DNA of 64,000 nt from Bacilli bacterium (GCA_017513865.1 JAFWMN010000006.1:2857-66856), one strand, 5' to 3'; counted from the stretch's first letter, positions 8,843 through 64,000 are shown. A program made the numbers and translations. The notes: a model not told the origin generated them from the sequence alone.

Positions 8843-8859
8843 TTACTACACCTCACTAA

Positions 8860-10356: not shown

Positions 10357-10392
10357 AAAAACCAAGATATATCTAAAATCTTGGTTTTTATA
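10357..10392. terminator. Hairpin terminator, likely bidirectional
   Basis: AAAACCAAGAT-loop-ATCTTGGTTTT with T/A runs on both sides, between the GIY-YIG gene and the toxin operon. Confidence 0.4.
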
Positions 10393-11076: not shown

Positions 11077-11087
11077 ATTATCAACTC

Positions 11088-14056: not shown

Positions 14057-14067
14057 TATTAACCTCC

Positions 14068-16389
14068 CTAGCTATATAAAGCGTTTTTTATATTAGAAAT
14101 AACATTAAGATATTTATCTTTACCTCCAAATAAATTTACTATAGGAACTAATCCACCAAATTTATTGAAGTTTTTAACTTCTAATATTCTTATATTTTCT
14201 AATTCAATTACATCGTGATTTTTATAAGTATTTAATAATTCATCAATAACACTCTTTTGAGATTCATTATAACCGTTAATAAAATCACTATTCTTTACTT
14301 TTTCAATTCTATCATCTTTTGATATCACTTCTTCGCCATAAGCCATATTAGATAAGATATCAAATATATCTACATTGTCATTAGCTTTGTCATATAAAGC
14401 ATCTATCATAACACCTTCATTAAATAAATTATTTAAGAAATCTTTTTTAGAATCAGCTCTATACCATTCTTGTTCAAAATCTTCATATCTTTCATATACT
14501 CTTTTTAGATTTTTACCAGAATATTCAACTATTGATTCTGTAATTAATTTACCATCAGCATCATAATATTTAACCGTTTCATTTAATATGGATACTGGAA
14601 CATCTTTAATATAAATCTTTTTAGATTGTCCATCTTCCACTTCGCCACTTATTGGTTTAGGTACTGGTGGATCAACTAATACACCATAACCTGCTCCGCT
14701 TATTGGTTTATCTCCATTACCACCATCTACATCAATAACAACCTCTGCAGGTCCATTAAAGTTAGGATCTGCAAACTTATCTGAATTACTTCTAAAATCC
14801 ATTATAGTAAAATAATTCTTATTTTTATTAGGTAATAATCTTGTACCTCTACCTATTATTTGTTTAAATTCAGTCATACTTTGTATTTCTTCATCTAATA
14901 CAATTAATTTAACTGTTTTAGTATCTACACCAGTAGATAATAATTTAGAAGTTGTAGCAATAACTGGATAAGCAGTATTAGCATCAATAAAGTCATCTAA
15001 TTTAGCTTTACCAACAACATCATTACTTGTAATTCTAACAATGTAATTTTGATTTACTTGCATCATATCTTTATTTTCTTCAGCGAGTGCATTTCTCATT
15101 CTTAATGCATGTTCAGTATCTACACAGAAAACTATAGTTCTAGCCATTCTATCTGTAGATTTCATATATTCAGTAATTCTTTTAGCAACTACCTTAGTTC
15201 TTTCATCAATTACAATAGTTCTATCAAAATCATGAAGAGTATATTCTTTATCTTCTACTTCATATCCATCTTCATCTAGTTTGCCCCTTTCAGGTCTATA
15301 ACCCTCAAGATCTTTATCTAAACTTACTTTAATCACTTTATAAGGCGCTAAGAATCCATCCTCAATACCTTGTTTTAATGAATATGTATATATAGGTTTC
15401 CCAAAATATGTAATATTAGATACATCTACAGTTTCTTTTGGTGTAGCAGTCATACCTATTTGTGTAGCTCCACTAAAATATGTTAAAATTTCATGCCAGT
15501 TAGAGTCATCTTTTGCACTACTTCTATGACACTCATCAACTATAATTAAATCAAAGAAATCAGGTTTAAATTGTTTATAAATTTCTTCTTCATTACTTCT
15601 TAATTGGTGATATAAAGACATATAAATTTCATATGAAGAATCCATATTTCTATGCTCAACCTTAGTCATGACTTTTTGAAAAGGTTTAAAATCATTTTGC
15701 ATTGTTTGATCTATTAAAACATTTCTATCTGCTAAATATAATATTTTTTTCATTTTTCCAGATTTATGTAATCTATGAATTATTTGGAAAGCAGTAAAAG
15801 TTTTTCCTGTACCAGTAGCCATAACTAACAAAATTCTCTTTTGACCTTTAGATATAGCTTCAATAGTTTTATTAATTGCAATTCTTTGATAATATCTTGG
15901 AGTTTTATTAATATCCATAAAATAATATGGTTCTGTAATTAATTCTTCTTGCTCTGGAGTAATTTCTTTTTCTAATAGATATCTTTCCCATAATTGTTTT
16001 GGAGTTGGAAATTCATTTAAAGCAATAGTTCTTTCTTCTCCAGTAATCATATCATGCTCATAAAACTCATCACCATTAGATGAGTAAGCAAAAGGAATAT
16101 CTAAATCTGCTGCATAATCCATACCTTGTTGAATGCCATGAGATGCTAAAACCTTATTGTCTTTTGCTTCAACAATAGCTATAGGAATATTAGCTTTATA
16201 TGATAAAAGATAATCAACTTTTTTACCTTTACCCCTTTGAGCAATATTTTCCCTAACATTTATTTTACCAGCAGTATAATAATACTCACATCTAATTTGA
16301 TTTTTAATATCCCACTCAGCTTCTTGTAATGCAGGTGTAATAAATTTTAACTTTATATCTTCTTCAGTTAAGTCTTTTTTATTAATCAT
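14068..16389 (-). CDS. hsdR: Type I restriction endonuclease subunit HsdR (short form, 773 aa)
   Basis: N-terminal PD-(D/E)xK (VDYLL...IVEAKD), SF2 helicase Walker A MATGTGKT and DECH box; -10/-35 and RBS upstream at about 16400-16460. Confidence 0.85.
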   Translation of the reverse strand: MINKKDLTEEDIKLKFITPALQEAEWDIKNQIRCEYYYTAGKINVRENIAQRGKGKKVDYLLSYKANIPIAIVEAKDNKVLASHGIQQGMDYAADLDIPFAYSSNGDEFYEHDMITGEERTIALNEFPTPKQLWERYLLEKEITPEQEELITEPYYFMDINKTPRYYQRIAINKTIEAISKGQKRILLVMATGTGKTFTAFQIIHRLHKSGKMKKILYLADRNVLIDQTMQNDFKPFQKVMTKVEHRNMDSSYEIYMSLYHQLRSNEEEIYKQFKPDFFDLIIVDECHRSSAKDDSNWHEILTYFSGATQIGMTATPKETVDVSNITYFGKPIYTYSLKQGIEDGFLAPYKVIKVSLDKDLEGYRPERGKLDEDGYEVEDKEYTLHDFDRTIVIDERTKVVAKRITEYMKSTDRMARTIVFCVDTEHALRMRNALAEENKDMMQVNQNYIVRITSNDVVGKAKLDDFIDANTAYPVIATTSKLLSTGVDTKTVKLIVLDEEIQSMTEFKQIIGRGTRLLPNKNKNYFTIMDFRSNSDKFADPNFNGPAEVVIDVDGGNGDKPISGAGYGVLVDPPVPKPISGEVEDGQSKKIYIKDVPVSILNETVKYYDADGKLITESIVEYSGKNLKRVYERYEDFEQEWYRADSKKDFLNNLFNEGVMIDALYDKANDNVDIFDILSNMAYGEEVISKDDRIEKVKNSDFINGYNESQKSVIDELLNTYKNHDVIELENIRILEVKNFNKFGGLVPIVNLFGGKDKYLNVISNIKNALYS

Positions 16390-16771
16390 AAAACCACTCC
16401 AAACCTCATTATCTTTCGTTTAACATTATAGCATAAAATAGTACTATTTTTAATTGTTATACGATTTTTTTGAAATGATTTTGAAATTTTTAGCTATTAT
16501 GCTACCTTAAATGTGTACTGAGATGAACTAGTGTGAACACTCTCTCCAAACAGAAGAAATTGCTGGAATCTAAATGGTGTCTATAATAATTAAAAAGCCT
16601 TATAAAATAAAGCTTTAAAAGGTGTCGTTGTGGTATCAGGGGGAAGGCCCAACACCTGTTTGTAACAATTTAATGTCATGCCAACGTATTATGAAATATG
16701 TCTTTTTCATTTCCTTAAGTTTACTAAAATTTATTAAAATAACTTTTTTTGTTTGGTGTTTATAAAATGCA

Positions 16772-16838
16772 AATGACACAGTGACACATTGTTTGTGAAT
16801 ATCCCGCGTACTTTATTGTGTCCTTGTGTCATTTAATT
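16772..16838. repeat. 18-bp imperfect inverted repeat AAATGACACAGTGACACA ... TGTGTCCTTGTGTCATTT (16/18 match, 31-bp spacer)
   Basis: Read directly from the sequence; lies between the stop of the 618-aa gene and the hsdR promoter; U-rich tract follows on the minus strand. Confidence 0.4.
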
Positions 16839-16903
16839 CTTATTTTATAGTGTTTTTGTTGTGATTTTCAATTAATATTTTTAATATCAATAGTTGTTTA
16901 TAT

Positions 16904-18760
16904 TTATCTAATTTTACTACCACCCTGTTCTCTATGTGTTTTTAAACAATCATCACTGCTCATGAGGCTAGTATATAAATTTGGCTTAGATAATGGTATG
17001 ATTTTAGGTGTTTTGTTTTGCTCATCTTCTTCTTGCAATTTTGAATCAGATGTTACTTCAGCACAAATTTGTTCAAATAATAACTGATTGTCTAAGAGCA
17101 GTGCCTGTAACTTCTCACTATCTGTAAGATTAATTGTTTTTTGATAATCACTTTTTATATCAGATATACGATGCTTCATAAATAATCTTATGGCATTTTC
17201 ATTTGCACTTTTTTTTACCGCTGCTCCTACAATATAAACCAGATTGTTTGGAAACATGTAAGCATAAATTCGCTCTCCTTCGCTACCTTTAATTTTAAAT
17301 AAGAAATTATTTAAATGAGGCTTATGTGCGTAACCACTATCTATAAATCCTTGTAATAATTTTAAAATTTTTATACGACTATCACGCTTTATATATTTTA
17401 AATCAGATAAAAAGCATGTCTCACCATTAGCTGTTTTTCCAAAAATTATTTTTGGAATTTTGTTTTCGTTATCCATATAATTTTGGTCATTATTATCTTT
17501 TTCAGTTTTTGATTTTTCTTCTTTTTTCTCCAAATCACTTTCATTAACAAGGTCCTCTTCATATTCGTTGGTTGTGGTTTCTTTTAACGAAGCATCAGTT
17601 TCTTTATACCTTTCAAGTCTTTGTTGTAATTTTTCTTTTTTTTCTGTAAACATACTTATATATCTAAGTTGTGTAGCATTTTTATTAAATGCATTAGTAT
17701 TCATGATAACTTTGCAATATTTTTCAATTCTATTAAATACACCTCGATCAAACGGTATATTTACGTCATTAACAACCGAACAATGTTTTAAATATATACA
17801 CAAATTCAAATAAACATTTCTAAATATTACTTTTGCATCGAGTGTTAATTCTTTTATTTGATTTATTTCTTCTAGTTTATTTAGTAATACCTCAAATTCG
17901 TCTTTGTTAAAATCATTTTTCATGTAAAATTTTCCTATTATATCGAGCGATTCAATAGCCTTCCTAACACCACTTTTAGGCTTATAAAACGAATAAATAT
18001 CGCTTCTTATTTGATGTTCTAATCGCGATTCTGTATAATCTTGTTCTGCATTTAATGGTGGAAACAATGTTGTCATAACATTTTTTAAACCACCTGACAT
18101 TTCTATTAAAAAATCAATGTCAGCCACTTGCACTTTTCTTATGCCACTACGCATTGCTGCATATCTAAAATCTGAAAAAGCTGTTTTGTTTTTATCTAAT
18201 GAATCAAGCAATTGTTGTGGTAATAGTAAATTTCCACCTTGATCTTGATTAATAATATCATCAGTTAAAATTCCCACATCAATCCAATTAAAAGAAGAAT
18301 CACCATCGTATGATAAAAATTCATGATTAATTAATGTAGAAAATATTGGATTTTGCAATTGATAATATGCGAACAGGTCATGCCCGCCAGTTGATCTTTC
18401 TCCTGTAGTCAAAGACAATGAAATATTTTTCCTAAAATCGTGAGACGGTAATATCGATGCTTGTATTTTTTCTGGCCTCGCTATAAATTGATCTGCTATT
18501 TCTTCAATTTCTTCTACACTTTTAGCAGAGCGCAAAGGGGAATATTTTATCATATCATGATACATAATTGGTGCTTTAAAAAAGTGTTCACAAGCAACAG
18601 CATAGTTAGATGCTGCTGTATCATCTCTCGATGTTTCATCGATATCACGATCAAACCCATCACTTTGAGACATTTCAGCAAACTTTCTTGCCATAATTCC
18701 GGAATTAACATAACGTGTAGCAGCTTCCCTAAAAACTTTTTCTAAATTTATTTCACTCAT
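16904..18760 (-). CDS. Large uncharacterised protein (about 618 aa): N-terminal about 430-aa unknown region, acidic linker, C-terminal Gp49/HigB-like RelE-fold domain
   Basis: C-terminal RIKILKLLQGFIDSG...FKIKGSEGERIYAYMFPNNLVYIVGAAVKKS resembles the Gp49/DUF891 HigB pattern. Start moved to the internal ATG with GGAGG RBS (18760) to remove overlap with yggS. Visibly higher GC than its neighbours. Confidence 0.4.
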   Translation of the reverse strand: MSEINLEKVFREAATRYVNSGIMARKFAEMSQSDGFDRDIDETSRDDTAASNYAVACEHFFKAPIMYHDMIKYSPLRSAKSVEEIEEIADQFIARPEKIQASILPSHDFRKNISLSLTTGERSTGGHDLFAYYQLQNPIFSTLINHEFLSYDGDSSFNWIDVGILTDDIINQDQGGNLLLPQQLLDSLDKNKTAFSDFRYAAMRSGIRKVQVADIDFLIEMSGGLKNVMTTLFPPLNAEQDYTESRLEHQIRSDIYSFYKPKSGVRKAIESLDIIGKFYMKNDFNKDEFEVLLNKLEEINQIKELTLDAKVIFRNVYLNLCIYLKHCSVVNDVNIPFDRGVFNRIEKYCKVIMNTNAFNKNATQLRYISMFTEKKEKLQQRLERYKETDASLKETTTNEYEEDLVNESDLEKKEEKSKTEKDNNDQNYMDNENKIPKIIFGKTANGETCFLSDLKYIKRDSRIKILKLLQGFIDSGYAHKPHLNNFLFKIKGSEGERIYAYMFPNNLVYIVGAAVKKSANENAIRLFMKHRISDIKSDYQKTINLTDSEKLQALLLDNQLLFEQICAEVTSDSKLQEEDEQNKTPKIIPLSKPNLYTSLMSSDDCLKTHREQGGSKIR

Positions 18761-18797
18761 AATATGCCTCCAAACATTATCATACACCTCTTTATAA

Positions 18798-19445
18798 TTA
18801 TAACATATTATTTTTATATCTTCTTTCCCCAAATATTTTAGTACCTATTCTTATTATATTGGTTCCTTCTTCTAGGGCTATTTTATAATCATTACTCATG
18901 CCCATTGATAGTAGTTGTAGATTATATTTATTTTTTAACTCTTTCATTTCTTTAAATGATTTTTTTATTATTTTTGTGTTATTTGTGTTAGGAGCTATAG
19001 CCATTAATCCTTTTAAATTAATGTTTGAAAGTTTTTTTATTTCTTTTATTATGGTTTCTAATTCTTCTTTTTTAATTCCGGTTTTGTTTGGATCATTGGC
19101 TATATTGATTTCTATTAATATGTTTATTTTTTTATTATTTTTGATAGCTTCTTTATTGATTTCTTTAGCTAATTTAATAGAGTCTACTGATTCTATTAAA
19201 TATATATTTCTTTTAATAAGTTCTTTTACTTTGTTTGTTTGTAGATGTCCTATCATGTGCCAATTAATATCTTTTGGGAGACTATCCATTTTAGTTATTA
19301 ATTCTTTTACATAGTTTTCACCAAAGTCTTTAATACCTAGATTATAAGCCTTTAATATTTCTTCATTACTTCTTGTTTTTGATACGGCTACTAAGGTAAT
19401 ATTATTACCTATTTCCCTTTTTATTTCTTCTATTTTTTCTTTCAT
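18798..19445 (-). CDS. yggS: YggS-family pyridoxal-phosphate homeostasis protein
   Basis: TLVAVSKTRS...IGHLQTNKVK...NLKGLMAIAP... conserved YggS/PROSC motifs. Confidence 0.85.
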   Translation of the reverse strand: MKEKIEEIKREIGNNITLVAVSKTRSNEEILKAYNLGIKDFGENYVKELITKMDSLPKDINWHMIGHLQTNKVKELIKRNIYLIESVDSIKLAKEINKEAIKNNKKINILIEINIANDPNKTGIKKEELETIIKEIKKLSNINLKGLMAIAPNTNNTKIIKKSFKEMKELKNKYNLQLLSMGMSNDYKIALEEGTNIIRIGTKIFGERRYKNNML

Positions 19446-49585: not shown

Positions 49586-51133
49586 TTACTCTTTTTCTTT
49601 AAAGTATTCTTCTTTATCAATTCTTTGGAATAAGATTTCTGGATTGTTTAATGTAATGCCCGGATCCATTCCTTTAAAATCTTTGGTAGAATCAAGCGTT
49701 CTGTTTTGGGTATTCAGTTGTTTAAATATTTTATCGGCAGTTTCTGGAAGAAAGGCTTGAAGATAAACTGTAGCTATTCTAATAGATTCTAAGAGGTTAT
49801 ATAATACTGTTTTTAGTCGTTCTTCTTTTTCTTTATCTTTGGCTAGAACCCAAGGCTCAGTTTCATCGATGTATTTGTTACTTCTTTTATATAAAGTAAA
49901 TATTTCATTTATGGCTTCAGCTATTTTTAATTCATTCATTTTGGTTTCTACTTTTGTGCCTAAGTTTTTTGCTTGTTCTATCAATTCTTTATCAACTTCC
50001 TCAAAAGCTTTTGGTTCATAGACTTTACCTTCGAAATATTTTTTTGACATACTTATGGTTCTGTTTACTAAGTTTCCTAAAACATTGGCTAAATCAGAAT
50101 TATATCGATCTAATATTAAATCTATGCCGATATTTCCATCATTATATATTCCAAGTTCACTTAATAGATAATATCTTACACCGTCCGCGGTAAAATCTTT
50201 GGCTAGGGCATCGGCATATAACATATTACCTTTTGATTTACTCATTTTTTCGCCTTTATTATCAACTAGGAAAGGATGTCCTAAAACTTGTTTGGTTATT
50301 GGTAAATCAAGCGCTTTTAACATAATTGGCCAATATACTGTGTGAAATCTCAATATATCTTTACCTACTATATGTATATCAGCTGGCCAGTATTTATTAA
50401 ATTTTTCTTTATCTGTTCCATAACCGATAAATGTAATATAGTTTGTTAGTGCATCTAACCATACGTATATTACGTGTTTTTCATCGAATGGGACTTTTAT
50501 CCCCCAATCAAATGACGTTCTTGAAACACATAGATCATCTAAGCCTTGTTCAATGAATCTTAACATTTCGTTTTTCTTTGTTTCAGGAACTATATAATCG
50601 TTATTTTCTTCGATATATTCTTTTAACCATTTTTCATATTTTTTTAAATTTAAGAAGTATGCCTCTTCTTTAGTTTTGTGAACATCTCTTCCACAATCTG
50701 GACATTTTCCATCTATCAATTGTGATTCTGTGAAAAATGATTCACAAGGTGTACAGTATAGTCCTTCATATGTTCCTTTATATATATCCCCTTTATCATA
50801 TAATTTTTGAAATATTTCTTGTACTTGTTTTTTGTGATTTGGATTTGTTGTTCTGGCAAAATTTGTATAATCTACATTAACTGATTCTAATACTCTTTTT
50901 ACCTCTAAAGATATTTCGTCAACAAAATCTTGAGGATTTTTGCCAGCTTCTTTGGCTTTATTTTGAACCTTTTGTCCATGTTCATCCATTCCAGTTTGAA
51001 AAACGACATCATATCCTTGTAATTTCTTATATCTAGCGATTGCATCAGCTAGAACTGCACTGTAGGCATTTCCGACTTGAGGTTTTCCTGATGCATAAAA
51101 TATAGGGGTTGTTATATAAAATGTTTTATCCAT
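49586..51133 (-). CDS. metG: Methionyl-tRNA synthetase (short form without C-terminal tRNA-binding domain)
   Basis: HIGH-type motif (PQVGNAYS region), KMSKS, zinc knuckle CPDCG. Confidence 0.9.
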   Translation of the reverse strand: MDKTFYITTPIFYASGKPQVGNAYSAVLADAIARYKKLQGYDVVFQTGMDEHGQKVQNKAKEAGKNPQDFVDEISLEVKRVLESVNVDYTNFARTTNPNHKKQVQEIFQKLYDKGDIYKGTYEGLYCTPCESFFTESQLIDGKCPDCGRDVHKTKEEAYFLNLKKYEKWLKEYIEENNDYIVPETKKNEMLRFIEQGLDDLCVSRTSFDWGIKVPFDEKHVIYVWLDALTNYITFIGYGTDKEKFNKYWPADIHIVGKDILRFHTVYWPIMLKALDLPITKQVLGHPFLVDNKGEKMSKSKGNMLYADALAKDFTADGVRYYLLSELGIYNDGNIGIDLILDRYNSDLANVLGNLVNRTISMSKKYFEGKVYEPKAFEEVDKELIEQAKNLGTKVETKMNELKIAEAINEIFTLYKRSNKYIDETEPWVLAKDKEKEERLKTVLYNLLESIRIATVYLQAFLPETADKIFKQLNTQNRTLDSTKDFKGMDPGITLNNPEILFQRIDKEEYFKEKE

Positions 51134-51149: not shown

Positions 51150-51375
51150 TAATATAAAAACGCCCTTAATATAAGGACGTTATAAACGTGGTACCACCTT
51201 AATTTGTAAGTGTTACTTACCTCTAGTTTTTAACGCATTATTACGGGTTAATTTAATTATTTGATTAACCTGCTCCAGAGCCATTCGGAGTAGTTCCCTT
51301 GTTTATTTTCACCAGCCATAAACTCTCTATAAAGTTTCCTACTTTTCTTTCCTTCTTCGCATTTACGTGAATTAT
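51150..51375 (-). ncRNA. T-box riboswitch leader (Met specifier) controlling metG
   Basis: On the minus strand: promoter TTGAAT-17-TGTTATAAT; stem I with AGAGA and an AUG codon in the candidate specifier loop; T-box sequence AATTAAGGTGGTACCACG (plus coordinates 51187-51204); terminator AACGTCCTTATATTAAGGGCGTT followed by UUUUUAU, immediately 5' of the metG RBS. Confidence 0.6.
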
Positions 51376-56900: not shown

Positions 56901-57482
56901 TCACCTTCTTTTTGATTTAAAGTTTTTTAAGGATTTTTCAATGTTTACTTTATACCTTCTCGTGATTTTAAATCTTTCGTTTTTTTCTTCTATGTCATAT
57001 ATTTTTTCAATAAATTCTCCACTGTTTTGTTCGATTATTTTTATAGATCCCTTGTTTGTGTCGAAGCATGTAATTATCGCTTCTTTAAACCCTAATTCTT
57101 GCATTTTTTTTAAAAGCAAATGGCATAATATTGTTCCATAACCTTGTTTTCTTTTAGAAGGAACTATTTGATAAAATATATGTCCACAATAGATCTTTGT
57201 CCTTTCATCTACTTCAGGGTTTAATCTTATTCCTCCGGCTCCAATTATTTTATCGCCTTCCATAAACCAATAGAATATTTCTTTTACTCCATCATTACCA
57301 ATTCCTTGTTTTTTTTCTTCTACTTCTTTTAAAAAGTTTTCGAAATTTTCTTTGGTTACAAAGGGCTTCCAATCTGGAAAATTATCATGAAAATCTTTAT
57401 TATATTCATCTATTTTAGAAAAATCTGTCATGTATTTATCTTCTAATATATATAATTCTTTCATTTTTATATTCCTATACAT
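56901..57482 (-). CDS. GNAT-family N-acetyltransferase
   Basis: Q/R-x-x-G-x-G/A motif (KRKQGYGTIL) in the acetyl-CoA-binding region. Confidence 0.65.
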   Translation of the reverse strand: MYRNIKMKELYILEDKYMTDFSKIDEYNKDFHDNFPDWKPFVTKENFENFLKEVEEKKQGIGNDGVKEIFYWFMEGDKIIGAGGIRLNPEVDERTKIYCGHIFYQIVPSKRKQGYGTILCHLLLKKMQELGFKEAIITCFDTNKGSIKIIEQNSGEFIEKIYDIEEKNERFKITRRYKVNIEKSLKNFKSKRR

Positions 57483-58032
57483 TATATTTGTTCATTAAAT
57501 TATCAAATGTTATGGTAAGAAAATCGTCAATTAACTCTTCTGCGTGTTTGTTTACACTATTAATTTTTTCTAATTCTTTTTTCGAGATTTTTCCAATAAC
57601 ATAATCTATTTTTTCTTCATCTTTATTATTTGATATTCCAATTTTTACTCTTTTATATTCGTTTGTATGAAGATTATCTTCGATGTTTTTAAGACCATTA
57701 TGCCCGCCTGATGATCCTTTATATTTTAGCTTTAAAGTTCCAGCTTCAGTATCTAAATCATCACATATAATTAGAATATCTTCTATACTTATTTTATAAA
57801 AATCTATGAATGCCTTTATTACTTCTCCTGATAGGTTTATATATTTTTGCGGTTTTAATAATATTATTTTTTCATTTTTAAAATTAAATGTTGTATAAAG
57901 TCCTTTAAATTTTTCTTTATTGAATTCTAAATTTTTCTTTTTGGCATATTCATCGATAAATCTAAACCCAGCATTGTGTCTTGTTTTTTCATATTCTTTT
58001 CCGGGGTTTCCTAGGCCAACTATCAATTTCAT
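57475..58032 (-). CDS. pth: Peptidyl-tRNA hydrolase
   Basis: MKLIVGLGNPG...TRHNAGF...GHNGLK motifs. Confidence 0.9.
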   Translation of the reverse strand: MKLIVGLGNPGKEYEKTRHNAGFRFIDEYAKKKNLEFNKEKFKGLYTTFNFKNEKIILLKPQKYINLSGEVIKAFIDFYKISIEDILIICDDLDTEAGTLKLKYKGSSGGHNGLKNIEDNLHTNEYKRVKIGISNNKDEEKIDYVIGKISKKELEKINSVNKHAEELIDDFLTITFDNLMNKYNV

Positions 58033-58099
58033 AAAATCACCTTTTTCCCGTTAGTATTATACTATTTAAATATAAAAGAAGTCAATTTTTGACTTCTTA

Positions 58100-58228
58100 T
58101 TTTAGATCTTCTATTTCCATTCTTTTCTTTAAGTTTGAAATTTCGACTTTTTTGATTTCTAATTTGATTTTTTCAATAAGCATTTCTAGTTCTTCTTCAG
58201 ATAATTTATTTAATTTATCTCTGACCAT
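58100..58228 (-). CDS. Candidate 42-aa small ORF (MVRDKLNKLSEEELEMLIEKIKLEIKKVEISNLKKRMEIEDL)
   Basis: Manually translated; RBS GGTGG; below the ORF-track cutoff; amphipathic/coiled-coil. Confidence 0.25.
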
Positions 58229-59738
58229 AGCTACCACCTATTTCTTTTTGAATTTGTTCATTAATTTTTCTTAATTCTTCATCTAATCTTGCGGCTTCTT
58301 CACGTACTTCCATTAATCTTCTTAATAAAAATTCAGCGACATTTATTAAATTCTCTTTTCTTTCATTGTTTTTTGTTTCTTCATCGATTTGGTTTGTAAG
58401 TTTTAGAACTAGATCTGCTGTTTCTTCTATTTCTGGAACTTTTGGTGTTTCTGGTTCTGGTAGGGATTGTGGCATTTCTTCGATATTCCTATCCTCTGGT
58501 TTTTCTGTTTCTTCTATTTCTGGAACTTTTGGTGTTTCTGGTTCTGGTAAGGATTGTGGCATTTCTTCGATATTCCTATCCTCTGGTTTTTCTGTTTCTT
58601 CTATTTTTGGAACTTTTGGTGTTTCTGGTTCTGGTAGGGATTGTGGTATTTCTTCGATATTCCTATCCTCTATTTTTTCTGTTTCTTCTATTTCTGAAAC
58701 TTTTGGTGTTTCTGGTTCTGGGATATCTAATACTTCTACATTTTTGTAATTGTTTAGATCTGCTGTTGATTTGATTGTTCCGTCTTTATAATATGTCACC
58801 ATTTCATTATTTTCTAATTTTACTTTTACTATTCCATTTCTTTCTTTTATTGCTTTTTTCTTATCTTTTCCAGCTTGTGTTGTTTGTTCCCATACAATTT
58901 CAATAGAATCTAAAGCATCAATATATTCTTGTGGTAATGTTCCTTTTTTATAATCATATTTTTGGTTTTGGAGCCATTTATTTACATCTATGTCATCATA
59001 TATGTATTTTTGTGGTATAAATATGTGTCCAAAATTTTCATAGATTTGTTTTAAGAAATTAAAAATTTGATACCATCTTTCTTTATTTTTTTCATGTCTT
59101 TTTCTATCTTTTTCTTCTTTTTCTGGCTCTTTTTGTTCTTCATTTGTTGTTTTTATTTTGCTTGTTAGTTCGCTTATGTTGTTTATTTTATTTAGTGTTA
59201 AACCATATTGATTAAGCACTTCTTCTACTTTTAATATTTGTGATACTTTTAGTATTCTATCTAAAAATAGTTCGATGGCGTTGAATAGTAACAATTCTTC
59301 AATTGTTTTTATCCCACAGTTTTTTAATTGTATAATGACTTTTTCTGGTAATTTTAGGGCTTCAATATCTTTTTTTAACAGTGAATCAATATCTATTTGT
59401 TTTCTTTTTTGTTCGTTTTCTTTTTCTATTTCTTCGATTATCCTATCTCTTTCATTTCTTTCTTTGTATGTTGCTTTTGAATCCATCTCTGCTCTATCAA
59501 AGGCTTTTCTTTCTTCTTCGTCTAACGTTGATTTGATGTCTAATCTCTTGTTTGCTAGATTTGTGGTTATTTCATTTAGCAATTCTTTATTATCTGAGAG
59601 GTTTTGTTTCAAAAGATTTCTTATTGTAAATATATTAAGATATTCTAAACTTGCTAATGCTTTTTCGCTTAATCCTAATTTTAATACGCTGTCATTTAAT
59701 TTATATAATGTTTCTTCTTTCATACTTTCTCCTTTCAC
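58215..59738 (-). CDS. Repeat-containing protein with two RNAP alpha-CTD-like HhH motifs, a helicase-associated (HA) domain and four PE-rich 26-aa tandem repeats
   Basis: LKLGLSEKALASLEYLNIFTIRNLL and LKLPEKVIIQLKNCGIKTIEELL resemble alpha-CTD. WYQIFNFLKQIYENFGHIFIPQKY...WL resembles the HA domain. Repeat unit PEPETPKVPEIEETEKPEDRNIEEMPQSL. Confidence 0.5.
   Translation of the reverse strand: MKGESMKEETLYKLNDSVLKLGLSEKALASLEYLNIFTIRNLLKQNLSDNKELLNEITTNLANKRLDIKSTLDEEERKAFDRAEMDSKATYKERNERDRIIEEIEKENEQKRKQIDIDSLLKKDIEALKLPEKVIIQLKNCGIKTIEELLLFNAIELFLDRILKVSQILKVEEVLNQYGLTLNKINNISELTSKIKTTNEEQKEPEKEEKDRKRHEKNKERWYQIFNFLKQIYENFGHIFIPQKYIYDDIDVNKWLQNQKYDYKKGTLPQEYIDALDSIEIVWEQTTQAGKDKKKAIKERNGIVKVKLENNEMVTYYKDGTIKSTADLNNYKNVEVLDIPEPETPKVSEIEETEKIEDRNIEEIPQSLPEPETPKVPKIEETEKPEDRNIEEMPQSLPEPETPKVPEIEETEKPEDRNIEEMPQSLPEPETPKVPEIEETADLVLKLTNQIDEETKNNERKENLINVAEFLLRRLMEVREEAARLDEELRKINEQIQKEIGGSYGQR
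58420..58740. repeat. Intragenic 78-bp tandem repeat, about 4 near-identical copies
   Basis: Unit ttctatttctggaacttttggtgtttctggttctggtagggattgtggcatttcttcgatattcctatcctctggtttttctgtttc repeats in phase. Confidence 0.85.
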
Positions 59739-61582
59739 TGTTTTTTTATTCTTTCTTTTACAATTTTCATTTGTTCAATTATACTTAACAAATACGTTAA
59801 CTCCTGTGAATCCATTATTTTTATTTGTTCATAAATTAATAAGTATACAGTTAACGATTCAATTTTGTCTGGTGTTTTTTCAACTATTTTTTCAACTTTA
59901 GCCATGTCAATTTGTGGGGTGATTAGTCGTTTTCCCATTTCTTCTATTTTTTCTAACACATATCTTAATTCGTCTGGATTCATTTCTTTTAAGTTTTGTC
60001 TTATTAGTTTCCTTAAGATGATTTCTTTCACTCTTCCTTTATCTTCTACTATTTCTTGTTGTGGTTCTGCTGGTGTTGGTTCGTCTACTAGTGGTTCTAT
60101 TATTTCGATTGAAGGAACTTCTGAACTTTGTTCTTCTTTACCTCTTTCTTCTATAAATTCAGCGTGTTTTTTTTCTATGAAGCTTATAAATCCAGCATCT
60201 GTTGCCTCCATTAACTTTCTTTTTCTTCCTTCAGTTATTTTATATTCTCTAATTAAACCATGGATGTATTTTCCGATTTCATATCTTCCATATGAATTTA
60301 TGATAACTATCAAATTTTCTGGAATATCATATGTTTGTTCTCTTTTATAAAACTCATGGAGGGCAGCTATGGTATTATTAGTCCATCTTTCTCTATCTAG
60401 TCTCTCACCATTTAAGTCAATTTTATATAGTATTTCACCATTTTCATCTTCTTTAAATCTTGGTTCTTTTTCGATTTGCGGTGTTTCTGTTTCCTCATTA
60501 TCTTTTTTTCTTCGTTTTCCTTCTATTATTTCTTCCATTGTCTTACCATTTAATTCTTCTATTTTAAGCGGGTCAATCCACGATATGGCTTTTTCTGAAT
60601 CTGGGATTATTTCTAATATTCTTTTTATTTCAACATCACTAAACCTTCTGGATGCTCTAGAAAGCCATTTACCCAATTCTATTAGTTTTCCGTCTTCATC
60701 TTGTGTTTTGTAGTCTATTGGAACTTCTAGATCACCATATTTTTCATAATATTTTTTTAATTGTTTTATTCCTTCCTCTGTTGTTATTCTTTTTCTTTCT
60801 ATTTTTGTTCTTGGTTTAATAAGCTCTTCTATTCTTTTAAATTCTTCCTCTTCTTCTTTTAAAATTCTTTCTCTTTCTTGTGGATCTTTTAATCTTTGTT
60901 TTAATTCTTCATATTGTTCACTGACGTCTTTTTTTCTTCCAATTAACCAATCTTGCCATTTTGTTGTAACGTTACCTTTTTTACTATATGCGCCTATAAT
61001 AAATATAACATCACCAATTTGATAGCAGTAGAATCGTTCTTGTCTTCCTCTAGATGTTGGTTTTATTTTAAATAAATCACGTATTTTTTCATGACTTGTT
61101 AATTTATCATCGCCAGTTAATTGATAGTCTCTAACATCGATGAATTTTTTGAGCAAATCCCAAAATAAATAATAGTTTTCTCTTTTTATTTCATTTTCAC
61201 AATCTTTTAACTCATCATAGCAATAAGATTCTCCGCTTGGTTTTCTAGCCCAAACAATTCTTATTGGTCTTGGTGAGATTATTTCAAATTCATCCTCTTC
61301 TTTTTTTTGTAAGCTTTCAAAAAAACTATCTATTTCTTTTATTTTTGCTTTAATTTCTTTTATTAACTCTTCTTTAAATTCTTCTTCTAAGGCTTCATCT
61401 TGAGAAACTTTTTCTATTTCTTGTTCTAATAAATCTTTTATATTTCCTATCACTTCTTCATTTCCATCCAATTGAGTTTTTAAAAAATGAGCTAAATCTT
61501 CTATTTTACTAATTCTTAAAACTTGGGTATACATTTGTTGAATATATTCTTTGTTTCTTTCGTTTTCTGTCATTTTTTTCAC
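59735..61582 (-). CDS. Uncharacterised protein with two helicase-associated (HA) domain-like repeats and charged coiled-coil regions
   Basis: KQLKKYYEKYGDLEVPIDYKTQDEDGKLIELGKWLSRASRR and TIAALHEFYKREQTYDIPENL...GKYIHGLIREY match the HA pattern (Y..L..Y..G.L.VP...G..LG.W); 4-nt overlap with the downstream gene. Confidence 0.5.
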   Translation of the reverse strand: MKKMTENERNKEYIQQMYTQVLRISKIEDLAHFLKTQLDGNEEVIGNIKDLLEQEIEKVSQDEALEEEFKEELIKEIKAKIKEIDSFFESLQKKEEDEFEIISPRPIRIVWARKPSGESYCYDELKDCENEIKRENYYLFWDLLKKFIDVRDYQLTGDDKLTSHEKIRDLFKIKPTSRGRQERFYCYQIGDVIFIIGAYSKKGNVTTKWQDWLIGRKKDVSEQYEELKQRLKDPQERERILKEEEEEFKRIEELIKPRTKIERKRITTEEGIKQLKKYYEKYGDLEVPIDYKTQDEDGKLIELGKWLSRASRRFSDVEIKRILEIIPDSEKAISWIDPLKIEELNGKTMEEIIEGKRRKKDNEETETPQIEKEPRFKEDENGEILYKIDLNGERLDRERWTNNTIAALHEFYKREQTYDIPENLIVIINSYGRYEIGKYIHGLIREYKITEGRKRKLMEATDAGFISFIEKKHAEFIEERGKEEQSSEVPSIEIIEPLVDEPTPAEPQQEIVEDKGRVKEIILRKLIRQNLKEMNPDELRYVLEKIEEMGKRLITPQIDMAKVEKIVEKTPDKIESLTVYLLIYEQIKIMDSQELTYLLSIIEQMKIVKERIKKQ

Positions 61583-61661
61583 CGCTTTCTACTTTACTTA
61601 AGTATATCATATTATTTTTTTGTAATCAAAAAAAACAAATATATAATTTGTTTTTTTACAT

Positions 61662-63209
61662 TTACTTTATTCTTTTAACTATTTCTGGGTGTCTTAATTT
61701 TTTCAAAGCTATTGATTCTATTTGTCTAACACGTTCGTCAGTTACACCAATTATTTTTCCTACTTCTTCACAGCTTTTTGGATTATCAAAATCAAAACCA
61801 AATCTTAATCTCATAATTTTTTCTTCTCTCTTAGTTATAAGTCTATACGTTTTTTCTTCGTTTCCTTGTTGCTTTTCTTTTACTCTGATTGTGAAAAGCT
61901 CTTTTACTGCTTCATTTGTATAGTTTCTAATTGCTTTTTCTTCTGTGGTTTCTTCTAATACCGTTTCATTTTCTAATAAGATTGTTCCCTCTATTTCTGG
62001 CGATAATTCGCCTTCTTCAAGCATTTCATCTAAACTGCTTAGACCATAAGTGAGTTTTTCAATTTTCATAGCTTCTTCTATTTCTTTTGTTGATACTTCC
62101 GGCATTCTGTTTTTTATGTCTTCGATTGTTACTTTTTCTTTTTCTTTTTCAAGGTCTCTTTTTACTCTTAAATACTTGAAAAATATTTGTTTTTTGGCAC
62201 TTAATGGGATTTCTTCAAAGTATCTATATCTGTTTAAGTTCCAGCTGATTGCCCAGTATACAAAAGTACTTAAAGCATATTCTTTACCATACCTTCCGTT
62301 GTTTGGTAATTTTATATCATAATTTTTTATATATTTGTCGATTCCTTTTATTAATCCCTCATATATGAAGGACATTTTATCCTCGGCGTTTCTTCCAAAC
62401 ACATCATTATCTATCTGATATTGAAATGCGAGTCTTAAAGAGTGGCTAATTAATTCTTTTCTTAATGGATAATAGAAATTTTCTATACCTTTTAATTTTA
62501 TTGTTTCTTTTTTTAATTCTTTTAACAGTTCTTTTAATTCGTCTTGTAAATCATCTTGTTGATTATTTTCAAGCTTTAAAATTTGTTCGTTTAAAAAGTT
62601 TATTCTTTCTTCTGTTTGTTTTTTTAGTTTGTATAATTTAGATAATCTTGCGACCATTTCCCTTCGTCTTATTTCACTATAAGGTCTTGTTGCTCTATCT
62701 ATATTAATATGGTGATTTTGAGCTACTCTTTTAAATCCATCTTCCCCCTGGATTGTTAAATCTACTCCTCTTATATTATATCCTTTGTCACTGAGATACT
62801 GATATATATATACAAGTTCCCATGGCATTAGGCCAAGATTAAGTATTTTGAAGTGAGGAATGTTTACTTCATATTCATATTCTTCATTTAATGTTGTAAA
62901 GTCTGAAGCAAGTTCTTCTATTATTGTTTTAATTTCCTTTTGTCTTTCTGGCGCTATTTTTATATCCGCTTCTGTTGACATTTTTAATATTAATTGATGA
63001 TCATAGGTTTCAACTTTTTCAAATTGCTGAATATCTATGATATTATATCCTTTTTGTTTGAAGTATTCTATTACCTCTTCCGCATTATATTTAAATTTTT
63101 TATATATTTTGTGATTTGGAATATAGTATACTGTTTGATTTAAGGAATTCTGGTATCTATAATTTTGGGCAAAATTATTTGCTTTTTCTTTTTGTTTTCT
63201 ATTTAGCAT
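61662..63209 (-). CDS. Sigma-70 family sigma factor with about 230-aa uncharacterised N-terminal extension
   Basis: Region 2-like GLIKGIDKY...YALSTFVYWAISWNLNRY; region 4.2 EEKIMRLRFGFDFDNPKSCEEVGKIIGVTDERVRQIESIALKKLRHP. Confidence 0.6.
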   Translation of the reverse strand: MLNRKQKEKANNFAQNYRYQNSLNQTVYYIPNHKIYKKFKYNAEEVIEYFKQKGYNIIDIQQFEKVETYDHQLILKMSTEADIKIAPERQKEIKTIIEELASDFTTLNEEYEYEVNIPHFKILNLGLMPWELVYIYQYLSDKGYNIRGVDLTIQGEDGFKRVAQNHHINIDRATRPYSEIRRREMVARLSKLYKLKKQTEERINFLNEQILKLENNQQDDLQDELKELLKELKKETIKLKGIENFYYPLRKELISHSLRLAFQYQIDNDVFGRNAEDKMSFIYEGLIKGIDKYIKNYDIKLPNNGRYGKEYALSTFVYWAISWNLNRYRYFEEIPLSAKKQIFFKYLRVKRDLEKEKEKVTIEDIKNRMPEVSTKEIEEAMKIEKLTYGLSSLDEMLEEGELSPEIEGTILLENETVLEETTEEKAIRNYTNEAVKELFTIRVKEKQQGNEEKTYRLITKREEKIMRLRFGFDFDNPKSCEEVGKIIGVTDERVRQIESIALKKLRHPEIVKRIK

Positions 63210-63318
63210 TATTTTCCCTCCTTTTTTATTCTTTATGGTTTCTTAAAAATACATGAGAAAAGCCCCTTTTTTCTTTGGGACTTATTATAATATATTTTGC
63301 ATATTTGTCAAATTAGAT

Positions 63319-64000
63319 TTATTCTAATTCTTGTTCATATAATTCTTTATATAGCTTGTTTTTCTTTAATAACTCATTATGTGTTCCTTCATCTATAACT
63401 TTACCATCATCAATTAGTAAAATTCGATCAGAATCTATAACAGTTGATAGTCTATGAGCAATTATTAAAATTGTATATTCACCTTTCATATTATTTATGG
63501 CTTTTTGAATGGCTTTTTGTGTTTCATTATCTAGGGCGCTTGTTGCTTCATCAAAAAGAATAATTTCGGTTTTTTTAAGAAGGGCTCTGGCGATAGCTAG
63601 TCTTTGTCGTTGACCACCTGATAGTGTCACTCCGCCTTCTCCAACTATTGTGTCATATTTTTTTGGAAGGGTCATAATGAAGTTATGGAGTTGAGCTATT
63701 TTACATGCTTCTATTATTTCTTCATCAGTAACATCTTCTTTAGTTATTTTTAAGTTTTCTTTGATTGTAAAATTAAATATATATGGGGCCTGAGTAATAA
63801 TTGAAATATTATCTCTAATACTATCTTTATCTAGTTCATTTATATCTATATTATCTATAGTTATTTTACCTTTGTCTGTCTTATATAATCTGTCTATTAG
63901 ATTAAATACCGTTGTTTTTCCAGAGCCACTTTTTCCGACGAAAGCAACTGTCTCGTTAGCATTTACTTTAAAAGACATGTCTCTAAGAATTTTTTTCTTA
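63319..64000 (-). CDS. ABC transporter ATP-binding domain (C-terminal part of a fused permease-ATPase; gene continues past window end)
   Basis: Walker A GKSGSGKTT, signature LSGGQRQR, Walker B ILLIDEATSALD, H-loop; frame open to 64000. Confidence 0.8.
   Translation of the reverse strand, partial: KKKILRDMSFKVNANETVAFVGKSGSGKTTVFNLIDRLYKTDKGKITIDNIDINELDKDSIRDNISIITQAPYIFNFTIKENLKITKEDVTDEEIIEACKIAQLHNFIMTLPKKYDTIVGEGGVTLSGGQRQRLAIARALLKKTEIILFDEATSALDNETQKAIQKAINNMKGEYTILIIAHRLSTVIDSDRILLIDDGKVIDEGTHNELLKKNKLYKELYEQELE

What the first reader, a model, noticed from the sequence alone, without database searches (positions are those of the whole stretch)
58215..63209. Three-gene cluster: sigma-70 protein with novel N-terminal domain plus two HA-domain proteins, one with alpha-CTD-like repeats
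Three co-directional, overlapping or tightly spaced genes lie upstream of pth. The sigma factor carries clear regions 2 and 4.2 and also a 230-aa unrecognised N-terminal domain. Its two partners both contain helicase-associated (HA) domain-like repeats. One of them also carries two helix-hairpin-helix motifs resembling the RNA polymerase alpha C-terminal domain. An alpha-CTD mimic co-encoded with a dedicated sigma factor suggests a transcription-hijacking or specialised regulatory module. I do not recognise this as a named system.
Basis: partly seen in the sequence, partly recalled or inferred. Interest (0 to 1): 0.58.

Follow-up and report, generated by a model that had tools for sequence, protein, structure and literature searches.

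The report
Rare sigma factor with alpha-CTD-like partners
A gut or rumen-type, AT-rich Bacilli genome carries a very rare sigma factor next to two DNA-binding "helicase-associated" proteins (one with two copies of an RNA polymerase alpha C-terminal-like domain) and a 43-residue protein; the same gene set recurs in distant relatives, so it is probably an undescribed transcription module whose function is still unknown.

Summary
On the minus strand lie a 515-aa sigma-70-family protein (61662-63209), a 612-aa HA protein (59735-61573), a 502-aa HA protein (58215-59723) and an overlooked 43-aa ORF (58097-58228), all upstream of pth.

- **Sigma:** the family profile matches primary sigma factors over regions 2-4 (B. 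subtilis SigA, E 1e-52). The first ~165 residues form a confidently modelled alpha/beta domain with no detectable relatives outside this family.
- **Alpha-CTD-like repeats:** a profile of the two repeats in gene 3 and its orthologues hits almost only RNA polymerase alpha-CTD chains in the PDB (29 of 36 hits, best E 2.4e-5).
- **HA domains:** each partner has one significant HA domain, not repeats.
- **Rarity:** in 1.84 billion representative proteins only about five other clusters share the N-terminal domain.
- **Synteny:** two relatives at ~30% identity keep sigma, the HA/alpha-CTD protein and the small ORF together in different flanks. Three sit beside an HA-family SF2 helicase.
- **Caveat:** two closer relatives have the HA genes at the same ABC-pth position without sigma.

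No phage, plasmid, PADLOC or literature match was found. The best reading is a specialised sigma module with trans-acting promoter-binding partners. "Hijacking" is unsupported.

The parts
63284..63311 (-). Perfect consensus promoter (TTGACA-16-TATAAT) in front of the sigma gene
   Evidence: 12 of 12 matches. Only 2 such sites occur in the 64-kb window, against 0.12 expected. A perfect TTGACA-N16/17-TATAAT site, which by eye extends to AATTTGACA...TATAATAA (GATTTGACA in L017), precedes the sigma orthologue in L017, L018, L019 and L020.
61662..63209 (-). Sigma-70-family protein, 515 aa. Layout: alpha/beta N-terminal domain (aa 1-~165), long helical hairpin (aa ~179-256), sigma regions 2 and 3, acidic linker, region 4
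   Evidence: Identical protein MBR3198721.1, annotated 'hypothetical protein, Bacilli bacterium'.
62715..63209 (-). Family-specific N-terminal domain of sigma (aa 1-165). It has two subdomains, each a helix followed by a KGY-x-I strand. Subdomain B carries the motif IPH..iL..LMPWEL..Y.Y...GY.IRG.DLT
   Evidence: No Pfam, NCBIfam or PDB sequence match. pLDDT ~75-93. Conserved in P0126, P0128, P0129, P0132 and P0241. There is weak A-to-B self-similarity (iE 0.004-0.07).
61665..62462 (-). Sigma regions 2, 3 and 4 (aa ~250-515)
   Evidence: The family profile matches SigA/RpoD chains, regions 2-3 and 4, at E 1e-52. Pfam Sigma70_r4 E 5.6e-12. NCBIfam TIGR02997 aligns aa 226-506.
61629..61657 (-). 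A/U-rich 12-bp hairpin running into a U tract, just after the sigma stop codon (terminator-like)
   Evidence: RNA fold -8.9 kcal/mol, z -2.95, 0 of 200 shuffles as stable. The G+C-based scan did not call it.
61601..61629 (-). Promoter-like site for the gene2-gene3-43aa operon (TTGATT-17-TATACT with TG extension)
   Evidence: The -10 block AATATGnTATACT and the leader GTAGAAAG(C/T)GGTGAAAA are conserved upstream of gene 2 in L001; the -10 block and a more divergent GGTGAAAA leader are kept in L004. Both lack sigma.
59735..61573 (-). Gene 2, 612 aa. Layout: helical N-terminus, conserved 'M' domain, one HA domain, a further conserved region, helical C-terminus
   Evidence: Protein MBR3198720.1, 'helicase associated domain-containing protein'.
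60884..61273 (-). 'M' domain of gene 2 (aa 101-230), with a strand/helix pattern. It also occurs in the L017 775-aa protein and in window ORF 16904-18832
   Evidence: Alignment A8 and HMM hits. The AF2 model is of low confidence here. HigB1 ranks 2nd in Foldseek but is not significant (E 1.0).
60641..60778 (-). HA (PF03457) domain of gene 2
   Evidence: Pfam E 1.4e-8, 35.4 bits against a cut-off of 28.4. An HMM built from the P0124 repeats gives iE 4.8e-10.
58215..59723 (-). Gene 3, 502 aa. Layout: two alpha-CTD-like domains, one HA domain, a short beta motif, an acidic/proline tandem repeat, a C-terminal coiled coil
   Evidence: Protein MBR3198719.1.
59529..59708 (-). Alpha-CTD-like (HhH)2 domain 1 (aa 6-65)
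   Evidence: Repeat-profile domain hit at aa 6-65 (built from this and seven other repeats, so self-consistent by construction). The same profile against the PDB hits alpha-CTD.
59187..59387 (-). Alpha-CTD-like (HhH)2 domain 2 (aa 113-179)
   Evidence: Pfam RNA_pol_A_CTD best stretch at aa 116-155. The profile against the PDB gives 29 of 36 hits to RNAP alpha-CTD, best E 2.4e-5.
58884..59075 (-). HA (PF03457) domain of gene 3
   Evidence: Pfam E 6.3e-8, 33.2 bits. HMM iE 5.9e-9.
58418..58721 (-). 87-nt tandem repeat, 3.5 copies, encoding the 29-aa unit PEPETPKVPEIEETEKPEDRNIEEMPQSL. Copy number varies between samples
   Evidence: TRF: 96% matches, score 566. P0125 (473 aa) lacks one unit relative to the 502-aa form.
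58097..58228 (-). 43-aa coiled-coil ORF whose ATG overlaps the end of gene 3 (ATGgtcagagaTAA)
   Evidence: Sequence. Conserved in L001 (84%), L017 (46%), L018 (53%) and L022, with 13 invariant positions.
58076..58098 (-). Intrinsic terminator closing the operon. The pth promoter (58085-58056) follows
   Evidence: 10-bp stem followed by a T run.

Best explanation
This is a chromosomal, four-gene specialised transcription module.

What is shown:
- A diverged offshoot of the primary-sigma lineage keeps regions 2, 3 and 4. Its region 4 is almost SigA-like. The usual N-terminus is replaced by a family-specific alpha/beta domain.
- It is co-inherited with a protein that carries two alpha-CTD-like (HhH)2 domains, one HA three-helix domain and a C-terminal coiled coil.
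- It is also co-inherited with a translationally coupled 43-aa coiled-coil peptide and, in most loci, a second HA protein (gene 2) and/or an HA-family SF2 helicase.

What is inferred (mechanism):
- Sigma binds core RNA polymerase and reads -35 TTGACA-type promoters.
- Gene 3, oligomerised through its coiled coil with the 43-aa peptide, binds AT-rich DNA upstream of the promoter with its alpha-CTD-like and HA domains.
- Gene 3 contacts the sigma factor, most likely through its unique N-terminal domain or region 4. It would then act as a trans-acting 'extra alpha-CTD' that tethers or gates this holoenzyme at its targets.
- Gene 2 is an accessory or regulatory partner.

Sigma itself is made from a strong, separately terminated consensus promoter, so its activity is probably controlled at the protein level by these partners. 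Its target genes are unknown.
For: - Sigma identity: family profile against PDB SigA E 1e-52 over regions 2-4; Foldseek top 50 are all primary sigma factors; Pfam r4.
- The N-terminal domain is conserved only within a tiny family. Exhaustive phmmer over 1.84 billion representatives gave 4 hits at E<=1e-30, and about 5 other clusters share the domain.
- Synteny at ~30% identity in different flanks: L017 has sigma, a 775-aa gene2-like gene, a 487-aa gene3-like gene and a 43-aa ORF. L018 has helicase, sigma, a 92-aa HhH ORF, a 475-aa gene3-like gene and a 54-aa ORF. L019 and L020 have sigma next to the helicase.
- The helicase core is 32% identical (E 2e-61) to a classical ResIII/Helicase_C helicase with five HA repeats.
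- Alpha-CTD likeness: 29 of 36 PDB profile hits are RNAP alpha-CTD, full-domain, best E 2.4e-5. Pfam RNA_pol_A_CTD gives E 1.4e-4 on the L017 orthologue, and rpoA TIGR02027 matches positions 233-295.
- The L018 orthologue of gene 3 has acquired a sigma region-4-like HTH (Pfam E 9e-4, NCBIfam ~1e-6, family HMM 6e-10). This is a second module borrowed from the RNAP promoter-recognition apparatus.
- HA is reported as DNA-binding, according to the title of Mills et al. 2013 as cited in PMC12191111.
- The gene3-43aa start/stop overlap is conserved across the loci that carry the small ORF.
- A perfect consensus promoter precedes sigma in all five loci.
Against: - No experiment exists, and the organism is known only as a MAG.
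- Two related lineages keep gene2/gene3/small ORF at the same ABC-pth site without an adjacent sigma (L001/L002 and L022). They have the same extended -10 promoter, so the HA genes neither need this sigma for expression nor always travel with it.
- The region 2.3/2.4 residues that melt and read the -10 element are poorly conserved within the family (alignment A3; read by eye).
- In the alpha-CTD-like repeats, the R265-equivalent is Lys in the second repeat of the three aligned orthologues (window, L017, L018) and is not conserved in repeat 1. The N268 and G296 equivalents are not kept (alignment A6; read by eye). UP-element-type DNA binding is therefore not assured.
- No interaction between sigma and gene 3 was tested.
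- The helicase partners resemble restriction/defence helicases (PbeA E 8e-25, type IV REase E 3e-18).
Confidence: 0.45

Rival explanations
1. It is a conflict (anti-phage or anti-mobile-element) system. The sigma-like protein would be a regulator or specificity subunit, as MzaA is in MZA. The HA-family SF2 helicase would be the motor or effector. The gene 3 protein, with its alpha-CTD-like and sigma-4-like modules, would be a decoy or sensor for phage factors that attack RNA polymerase.
For: - The sigma-linked helicases score best against defence helicases: PbeA 8e-25, type IV methyl-directed REase 3e-18, dnd restriction enzyme 4.6e-18.
- MzaA is the only PADLOC hit for sigma.
- Architectures are highly variable (split, fused, domain insertions). 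A repeat changes copy number between samples.
- The 'M' domain of gene 2 recurs in a 642-aa protein next to a type I R-M system, a T5orf172 gene and an integrase in the same window.
- HA helicases are reported near retrons and in acr-aca operons (PMC13551039).
Against: - The MzaA match covers region 4 only (51 bits against a cut-off of 800), and no MzaB-E genes are present.
- Genes 2 and 3 and the X protein have no meaningful PADLOC hits; gene 2's only entry is LeoBC at E 0.39.
- The window cluster has no helicase, nuclease or other effector.
- The locus is in a conserved core-chromosome segment, not an island.
- Helicase scores are far below the family cut-offs and reflect the shared SF2 core.
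Confidence: 0.2
2. The HA proteins and the small ORF are an independent DNA-binding or nucleoid/repair-related unit. The sigma gene is an unrelated alternative sigma factor that merely sits nearby in some lineages.
For: - L001/L002 and L022 have gene2/gene3/small ORF at the same site without sigma.
- Sigma has its own promoter and terminator.
- The gene 2 promoter is conserved whether or not sigma is present.
- The neighbours are DNA-transaction genes (mfd, recR, holB).
Against: - The adjacency of sigma and gene 3 is kept in three lineages at ~30% identity with different flanks (W, L017, L018).
- Three other or overlapping sigma loci carry the HA-family helicase.
- Gene 3 orthologues contain RNAP-derived modules (alpha-CTD-like, sigma-4-like).
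Confidence: 0.25
3. The cluster is a decaying remnant with no current function: a diverged sigma paralogue and split pseudogenes of a once-single HA protein.
For: - Gene 2 plus gene 3 correspond to single fused proteins in relatives (816-aa P0122, 914-aa P0277).
- One relative carries an in-frame stop (L004).
Against: - All window ORFs are intact at 500-600 aa in a 28% G+C genome.
- The gene2/gene3 junction is a clean TGA-AAGGAG-ATG.
- The two-gene layout is shared with L017.
- The identical sigma protein occurs on at least 8 contigs from different samples.
- Promoters, ribosome-binding sites and the 43-aa ORF are conserved.
Confidence: 0.05

Closest known systems
Primary and primary-like sigma factors (group 1/2: SigA, RpoD, HrdB)
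   Same: Regions 2, 3 and 4 align with high significance (E 1e-52 for the family profile). Region 4 is nearly canonical (LRFGFD...EEVG...VT.ERVRQIE.KALKKLRHP). The best structural matches are SigA/RpoD.
   Different: There is no detectable region 1.1; a ~165-aa alpha/beta domain unique to about six protein clusters stands in its place. There is a ~10-aa insertion between regions 2.2 and 2.3. The -10-reading and melting residues are variable. Identity is about 20-30% at most. NCBIfam scores (<=63 bits) are far below the RpoD cut-offs (350-570 bits). It is therefore not a housekeeping RpoD.
C-terminal domain of the RNA polymerase alpha subunit (PF03118)
   Same: Two ~60-aa domains match alpha-CTD over its whole length (profile positions 3-62 of 63). 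Alpha-CTD is almost the only PDB family hit.
   Different: They are not attached to an alpha N-terminal domain. They occur in tandem within an HA/coiled-coil protein. The R265-equivalent is Lys in repeat 2 only, and the N268 and G296 equivalents are not conserved (read by eye from A6). Pfam scores are below the gathering threshold (18-22 bits against 23.8).
HA-domain SF2 helicases (ResIII, Helicase_C and PF03457 repeats, e.g. P0124)
   Same: The HA domain is above threshold in both partners. The helicase next to sigma in L018, L019 and L020 shares its core with such helicases (32% identity, E 2e-61).
   Different: In the window, the HA domains are single copies in proteins with no helicase core. 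The sigma-linked helicases have no detectable HA repeats in their ~440-aa C-terminal halves.
MzaA, the sigma-70-family protein of the MZA anti-phage system
   Same: It is a sigma-like protein in a multi-gene module, and it is the only PADLOC hit.
   Different: The match is confined to region 4 (51 bits against a cut-off of 800). No MzaB-E homologues are present.
Sigma / anti-sigma (or co-sigma) gene pairs of alternative sigma factors
   Same: An alternative sigma is encoded beside conserved partner proteins that probably control or assist it.
   Different: The partners have no anti-sigma domains. They carry DNA-binding and RNAP-like modules instead. They are transcribed separately from sigma and persist without it in some lineages.

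Membership tests
Sigma-70 family | Region 4 (4.1-4.2 HTH) | tested here: met
   Pfam Sigma70_r4 E 5.6e-12, 45.4 bits against a cut-off of 24.1.
Sigma-70 family | Region 2 (core binding, -10 recognition and melting) | tested here: met
   Pfam r2 does not hit the single sequence. TIGR02997 aligns aa 226-506. The family profile aligns regions 2-3 to SigA residues 125-283 (domain E 3e-23). Individual melting residues are not well conserved (read by eye).
Sigma-70 family | Binds core RNA polymerase and directs promoter-specific initiation | not testable with these tools
   Needs biochemistry.
Group 1 (housekeeping) sigma, RpoD/SigA | Region 1.1/1.2 and a full-length score above the curated cut-offs | tested here: not met
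   No Sigma70_r1_1 or r1_2 hit. The best NCBIfam RpoD score is 63 bits against cut-offs of 354-572.
RNA polymerase alpha C-terminal domain (PF03118) | Whole-domain sequence match to alpha-CTD | tested here: met
   The repeat profile hits alpha-CTD chains in 29 of 36 PDB matches (best E 2.4e-5), covering positions 3-62 of 63. Single-sequence Pfam scores are below the gathering threshold (18.2 and 22.0 bits against 23.8).
RNA polymerase alpha C-terminal domain (PF03118) | DNA-binding '265 determinant' (R265, N268, G296, K298, S299) | tested here: not met
   Read by eye from A6. Lys replaces R265 in repeat 2 of window, L017 and L018 (Glu in the fourth copy), and the position varies in repeat 1. 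The N268 and G296 equivalents are not conserved.
RNA polymerase alpha subunit (RpoA) | Alpha N-terminal (assembly) domain preceding the CTD | tested here: not met
   There is no RNA_pol_A_bac or RNA_pol_L hit. The domains sit in an HA/coiled-coil protein.
HA, helicase-associated domain (PF03457) | Score above Pfam gathering threshold | tested here: met
   Gene 2 scores 35.4 bits and gene 3 scores 33.2 bits, against 28.4. Confirmed with an HMM built from the P0124 repeats.
HA-domain helicases | SF2 helicase core in the same protein, with several HA repeats | tested here: not met
   Genes 2 and 3 have no helicase domain. Each has one significant HA domain, and the second candidate in gene 2 gives hhalign E 0.094.
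MZA anti-phage system | Full-length MzaA plus MzaB-E neighbours | tested here: not met
   51 bits against a cut-off of 800, region 4 only. Neither partner matches any Mza protein in PADLOC; gene 2's only entry is LeoBC at E 0.39 and gene 3 has none.
RelE/HigB (Gp49-like) toxin fold, considered for the gene 2 'M' domain | Significant sequence or fold match | tested here: inconclusive
   The AF2 model of aa 90-204 has pLDDT below 50. HigB1 (7nbu_Y) ranks 2nd in Foldseek but at E 1.0. Profile searches against the PDB find nothing. The weak phrog_2523 hit has E 0.015.

The most novel reading that the evidence does not exclude
The cassette is a non-canonical initiation system. It would be a sigma-70-type factor with a degenerate -10-reading and melting region that cannot work alone. 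It would depend on trans-acting factors built from RNAP promoter-recognition modules (tandem alpha-CTD-like domains, in one lineage also a sigma-4-like HTH) and, in several genomes, on an SF2 helicase. That would be a bacterial sigma-70 analogue of the activator- or ATPase-dependent initiation known for sigma-54, and of archaeal and eukaryotic pre-initiation complexes.
Probability: 0.08. Interest if true: 0.85.

Novelty: new variant of a known kind. Interest (0 to 1): 0.55.

Why it matters
Alternative sigma factors are normally paired with anti-sigma factors. A conserved pairing with proteins that carry free-standing copies of RNA polymerase's own promoter-contacting modules has not, as far as I could find, been described. 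Here those modules are alpha-CTD-like domains and, in one orthologue, a sigma-4-like HTH.

If the partners really act at promoters, this would be a new way of recruiting or gating a holoenzyme. It would also give the poorly understood HA domain its first functional context outside helicases.

The family is tiny, about six 50%-identity clusters among 1.84 billion representatives, and is known only from metagenomes. Its general importance is therefore limited unless the mechanism proves unusual.

Tried and rejected
- **RelE/HigB-like fold for the gene 2 middle domain.** The by-eye pattern and a HigB1 Foldseek rank of 2 were not significant, and the model confidence there is low. Left as inconclusive.
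- **A second HA domain in gene 2 (aa ~395-470).** hhalign finds the expected register, but at E 0.094.
- **Similarity between the C-terminal ~100 aa of gene 2 and the C-terminus of the L017 775-aa protein.** None by BLASTP.
- **Phage or plasmid origin.** There is no tblastn match for the sigma N-terminal part, gene 2 or gene 3 in 50,697 phage records. In 72,556 plasmid records the only matches are generic HA domains. IMG/VR has no relatives. BFVD fold hits are generic phage sigma factors, weaker than cellular SigA.
- **More loci.** The GTDB representative genomes returned only housekeeping RpoD false positives. Two JGI metagenome scans found nothing. A six-sequence alignment was too divergent to scan with.
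- **The 484-aa gene beside the fusion in L022 as a displaced sigma.** It is not. It is instead homologous to the N-terminus of window ORF 16904-18832.
- **The helicase hit in the window (15349-15891).** This is the HsdR of a type I R-M system, not the sigma-linked helicase.
- **RNA elements.** There is no Rfam family in 57900-63400. The sigma leader fold is not better than shuffles.
- **P0052 (RpoD of a 'Bacilli bacterium') as this organism's housekeeping sigma.** It comes from a different MAG, so the presence of a separate RpoD in this genome is assumed, not shown.

Full report
**1. What is there**

Five co-directional genes lie on the minus strand:
- the end of an ABC exporter (63319-63978);
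- a 515-aa ORF (61662-63209);
- a 612/615-aa ORF (59735-61573/61582);
- a 502/507-aa ORF (58215-59723/59738);
- pth (57475-58032), followed by a GNAT gene and mfd.

Reading the junctions refines this picture:
- The first gene has its own perfect promoter, TTGACA-16-TATAAT, at 63311-63284.
- It has a strong ribosome-binding site.
- After its stop codon lies a 12-bp A/U hairpin (-8.9 kcal/mol, z -2.95) running into a U tract.
- A second promoter-like site (TTGATT-17-TATACT with a TG extension, 61629-61601) precedes gene 2.
- Gene 2 ends TGA-AAGGAG-N6-ATG, so gene 3 starts at 59723.
- A 43-aa ORF (58097-58228) starts inside the last codons of gene 3. A good terminator (58098-58076) follows it.

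The unit is therefore sigma on its own, plus a three-cistron operon.

The proteins are identical to MBR3198721.1, MBR3198720.1 and MBR3198719.1 of a 'Bacilli bacterium' MAG. The window has 28% G+C.

**2. The sigma factor**

- Pfam sees only region 4 (E 5.6e-12).
- NCBIfam RpoD-type models align aa 226/307-515, but at scores of 63 bits or less against cut-offs above 350.
- The word-indexed search of 5.8 billion proteins found only the protein itself and region-4-only hits.
- The exhaustive phmmer over 1.84 billion representatives found full-length relatives at ~30% identity: P0126 (E 3e-43) and P0128 (E 1e-38). It also found shorter relatives, P0129, P0132 and P0241.
- A profile of the six sequences matches B. 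subtilis SigA at E 1e-52. It covers regions 2-3 (SigA 125-283) and region 4 (SigA 288-369).
- The AF2 model (mean pLDDT 70.7) retrieves only primary sigma factors from the PDB. From BFVD it retrieves generic phage sigma factors more weakly.

The N-terminal ~165 residues have no match anywhere outside this family, yet they are modelled confidently (pLDDT ~75-93). They form two small alpha/beta subdomains. Each ends in a helix followed by a 'KGY-x-I' strand. Subdomain B carries the family motif IPH..iL..LMPWEL..Y.Y...GY.IRG.DLT. The self-similarity between subdomains A and B is weak.

Region 4 is almost SigA-like. The region 2.3/2.4 residues vary within the family (read by eye).

**3. The partners**

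- *HA domains.* Both partners have one HA domain above Pfam's threshold (confirmed). A second HA-like stretch in gene 2 is not significant.
- *Alpha-CTD-like domains.* Gene 3 starts with two ~60-aa repeats. Pfam RNA_pol_A_CTD is sub-threshold on the window protein (E 0.002) and on the L017 orthologue (E 1.4e-4). A profile of eight repeat copies from four lineages (A6) hits RNA polymerase alpha-CTD in 29 of 36 PDB matches. It covers the whole domain, best E 2.4e-5. The 'alpha-CTD-like' call is therefore specific and not a generic helix-hairpin-helix match. The classical DNA-contact residues are only partly kept.
- *Rest of gene 3.* It continues with a short conserved beta motif, an 87-nt x 3.5 tandem repeat and a C-terminal coiled coil. 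The repeat encodes an acidic, proline-rich linker and varies in copy number between samples.
- *The 43-aa ORF.* It is conserved, with 13 invariant positions, in L001, L017, L018 and L022.
- *Gene 2.* It has a confidently helical N-terminus and a conserved middle 'M' domain of unknown fold.

**4. Is it a unit?**

*Evidence for a unit.* L017 has the same four genes in the same order: sigma, a 775-aa M+HA protein, a 487-aa HhH x2 + HA protein and a 43-aa ORF. L018 has an 883-aa SF2 helicase, sigma, a 92-aa HhH protein, a 475-aa HhH+HA protein and a 54-aa ORF. In L019 and L020, sigma is followed by the same helicase.
- Identities to the window proteins are 26-33%, and the flanking genes all differ.
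- The helicase core is 32% identical (E 2e-61) to a classical helicase with five HA repeats. HA proteins and an HA-type helicase are therefore alternative or joint neighbours of this sigma family.
- The L018 gene 3 orthologue has a sigma region-4-like HTH inserted in its linker.
- All five sigma genes sit behind a perfect TTGACA-N16/17-TATAAT promoter that extends to AATTTGACA...TATAATAA (GATTTGACA in L017). Such a site occurs only twice in the 64-kb window, against 0.12 expected.

*Evidence against strict dependence.* In L001/L002 (60% identity) a single 816-aa protein equals gene 2 aa 1-511 fused to gene 3 aa 213-502. It lacks the alpha-CTD-like region. In L022/L023 (54% identity) a 914-aa protein fuses gene 2 aa 1-350 to a complete gene 3. 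Both sit between the same ABC gene and pth, have the small ORF, and have no sigma. Their promoter matches that of window gene 2. The HA operon is therefore not expressed through this sigma.

**5. Context and what it is not**

- The locus lies in the conserved origin-proximal segment: dnaX-ybaB-recR-holB-...-rsmI-ABC | cluster | pth-GNAT-mfd ... spoVT-metG.
- No relatives exist in phage, plasmid or IMG/VR collections.
- PADLOC gives only a region-4 match to MzaA for sigma. For the helicases of other loci it gives generic SF2 matches (PbeA, type IV REase).
- No Rfam element is present.
- Full-text searches found nothing that describes such a module. HA is cited as a DNA-binding three-helix domain, and HA helicases are noted near retrons and in acr-aca operons.

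**6. Interpretation**

The best-supported reading (confidence ~0.45) is a specialised transcription module. It would consist of a primary-sigma-derived alternative sigma with a private N-terminal domain, working with a coiled-coil protein that offers alpha-CTD-like and HA DNA-binding domains in trans, together with the small peptide, gene 2 and/or a helicase. The steps from 'co-inherited' to 'binds sigma and acts at promoters' are inference.

The rivals are:
- an independent HA-protein unit with fortuitous or loose linkage to sigma (~0.25);
- a conflict or defence system (~0.2);
- decay (~0.05).

'Transcription hijacking' by a mobile element has no support.

**7. Verdict**

The finding is real and its domain calls are largely right. 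It is a rare, undescribed variant of the alternative-sigma theme and is moderately interesting. It is known only from metagenomes and has no functional evidence.

Noticed in passing
window 6356-18832: A probable genomic island. It holds a tyrosine integrase (6356-7513, +), a T5orf172 protein (10393-11076, -), a type I R-M system hsdS/hsdM/hsdR (11088-16389, -) and a 642-aa protein with no Pfam hit (16904-18832, -).
   Followed up: partly
window 16904-18832 (-) and L022 9951-11405: The 642-aa protein looks like a 'Rosetta stone' fusion. Its C-terminus (aa 456-571) carries the same 'M' domain as gene 2. Its N-terminus (aa 66-389) is 29% identical (E 7e-32) to a 484-aa protein that sits right after the gene2/gene3 fusion and small ORF in L022. 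This X domain is therefore linked to the HA-protein operon both by fusion and by adjacency.
   Followed up: partly
window 8032-8060 (-): The only other perfect TTGACA-17-TATAAT promoter in the window. It points into about 500 bp (7514-8031) that has no ORF of 35 aa or more, no tRNA and no Rfam hit. It may drive a small RNA or a leader.
   Followed up: partly
window 63243-63254 (-): A three-codon uORF (ATG TAT TTT TAA) preceded by GGGG lies in the sigma leader. It sits at the distance from the promoter where the sigma start codon lies in L017-L020. The window gene starts ~45 nt further on, with its own AAAGGAGGG.
   Followed up: no
L004/L005 3270-3272: An in-frame TAA truncates the HA/alpha-CTD fusion protein to 517 aa (P0123), and homology to gene 3 continues past it. 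Sister contigs L022/L023 encode the intact 914-aa form (P0277). It is either a strain-level pseudogene or an assembly or sequencing error.
   Followed up: partly
L018 5879-7306 (aa 241-295): The gene 3 orthologue carries an inserted sigma region-4-like HTH (LRLRYGLDDG...EEVG...). NCBIfam RpoD models give E ~1e-6, and the sigma-family HMM gives E 6e-10.
   Followed up: yes
L009-L014: An unrelated 474-aa sigma (regions 2 and 4, with a duplicated region 4) is followed by a 1177-aa DEAD helicase and a NERD/UvrD helicase. It lies inside an element with a serine recombinase in a 48% G+C organism. This is another sigma-plus-helicase pairing, possibly a defence module.
   Followed up: no
window 51170-51366 (-): A T-box leader (117 bits) lies upstream of metG (49586-51133).
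   Followed up: no
L006 5094-7177 and L018 70-1071: 333-aa proteins with no Pfam domain. They are tandem paralogues in the window's genome, just outside the window. A 25%-identical homologue lies immediately upstream of the helicase-sigma cassette in L018, behind another perfect consensus promoter (L018 17-44).
   Followed up: no
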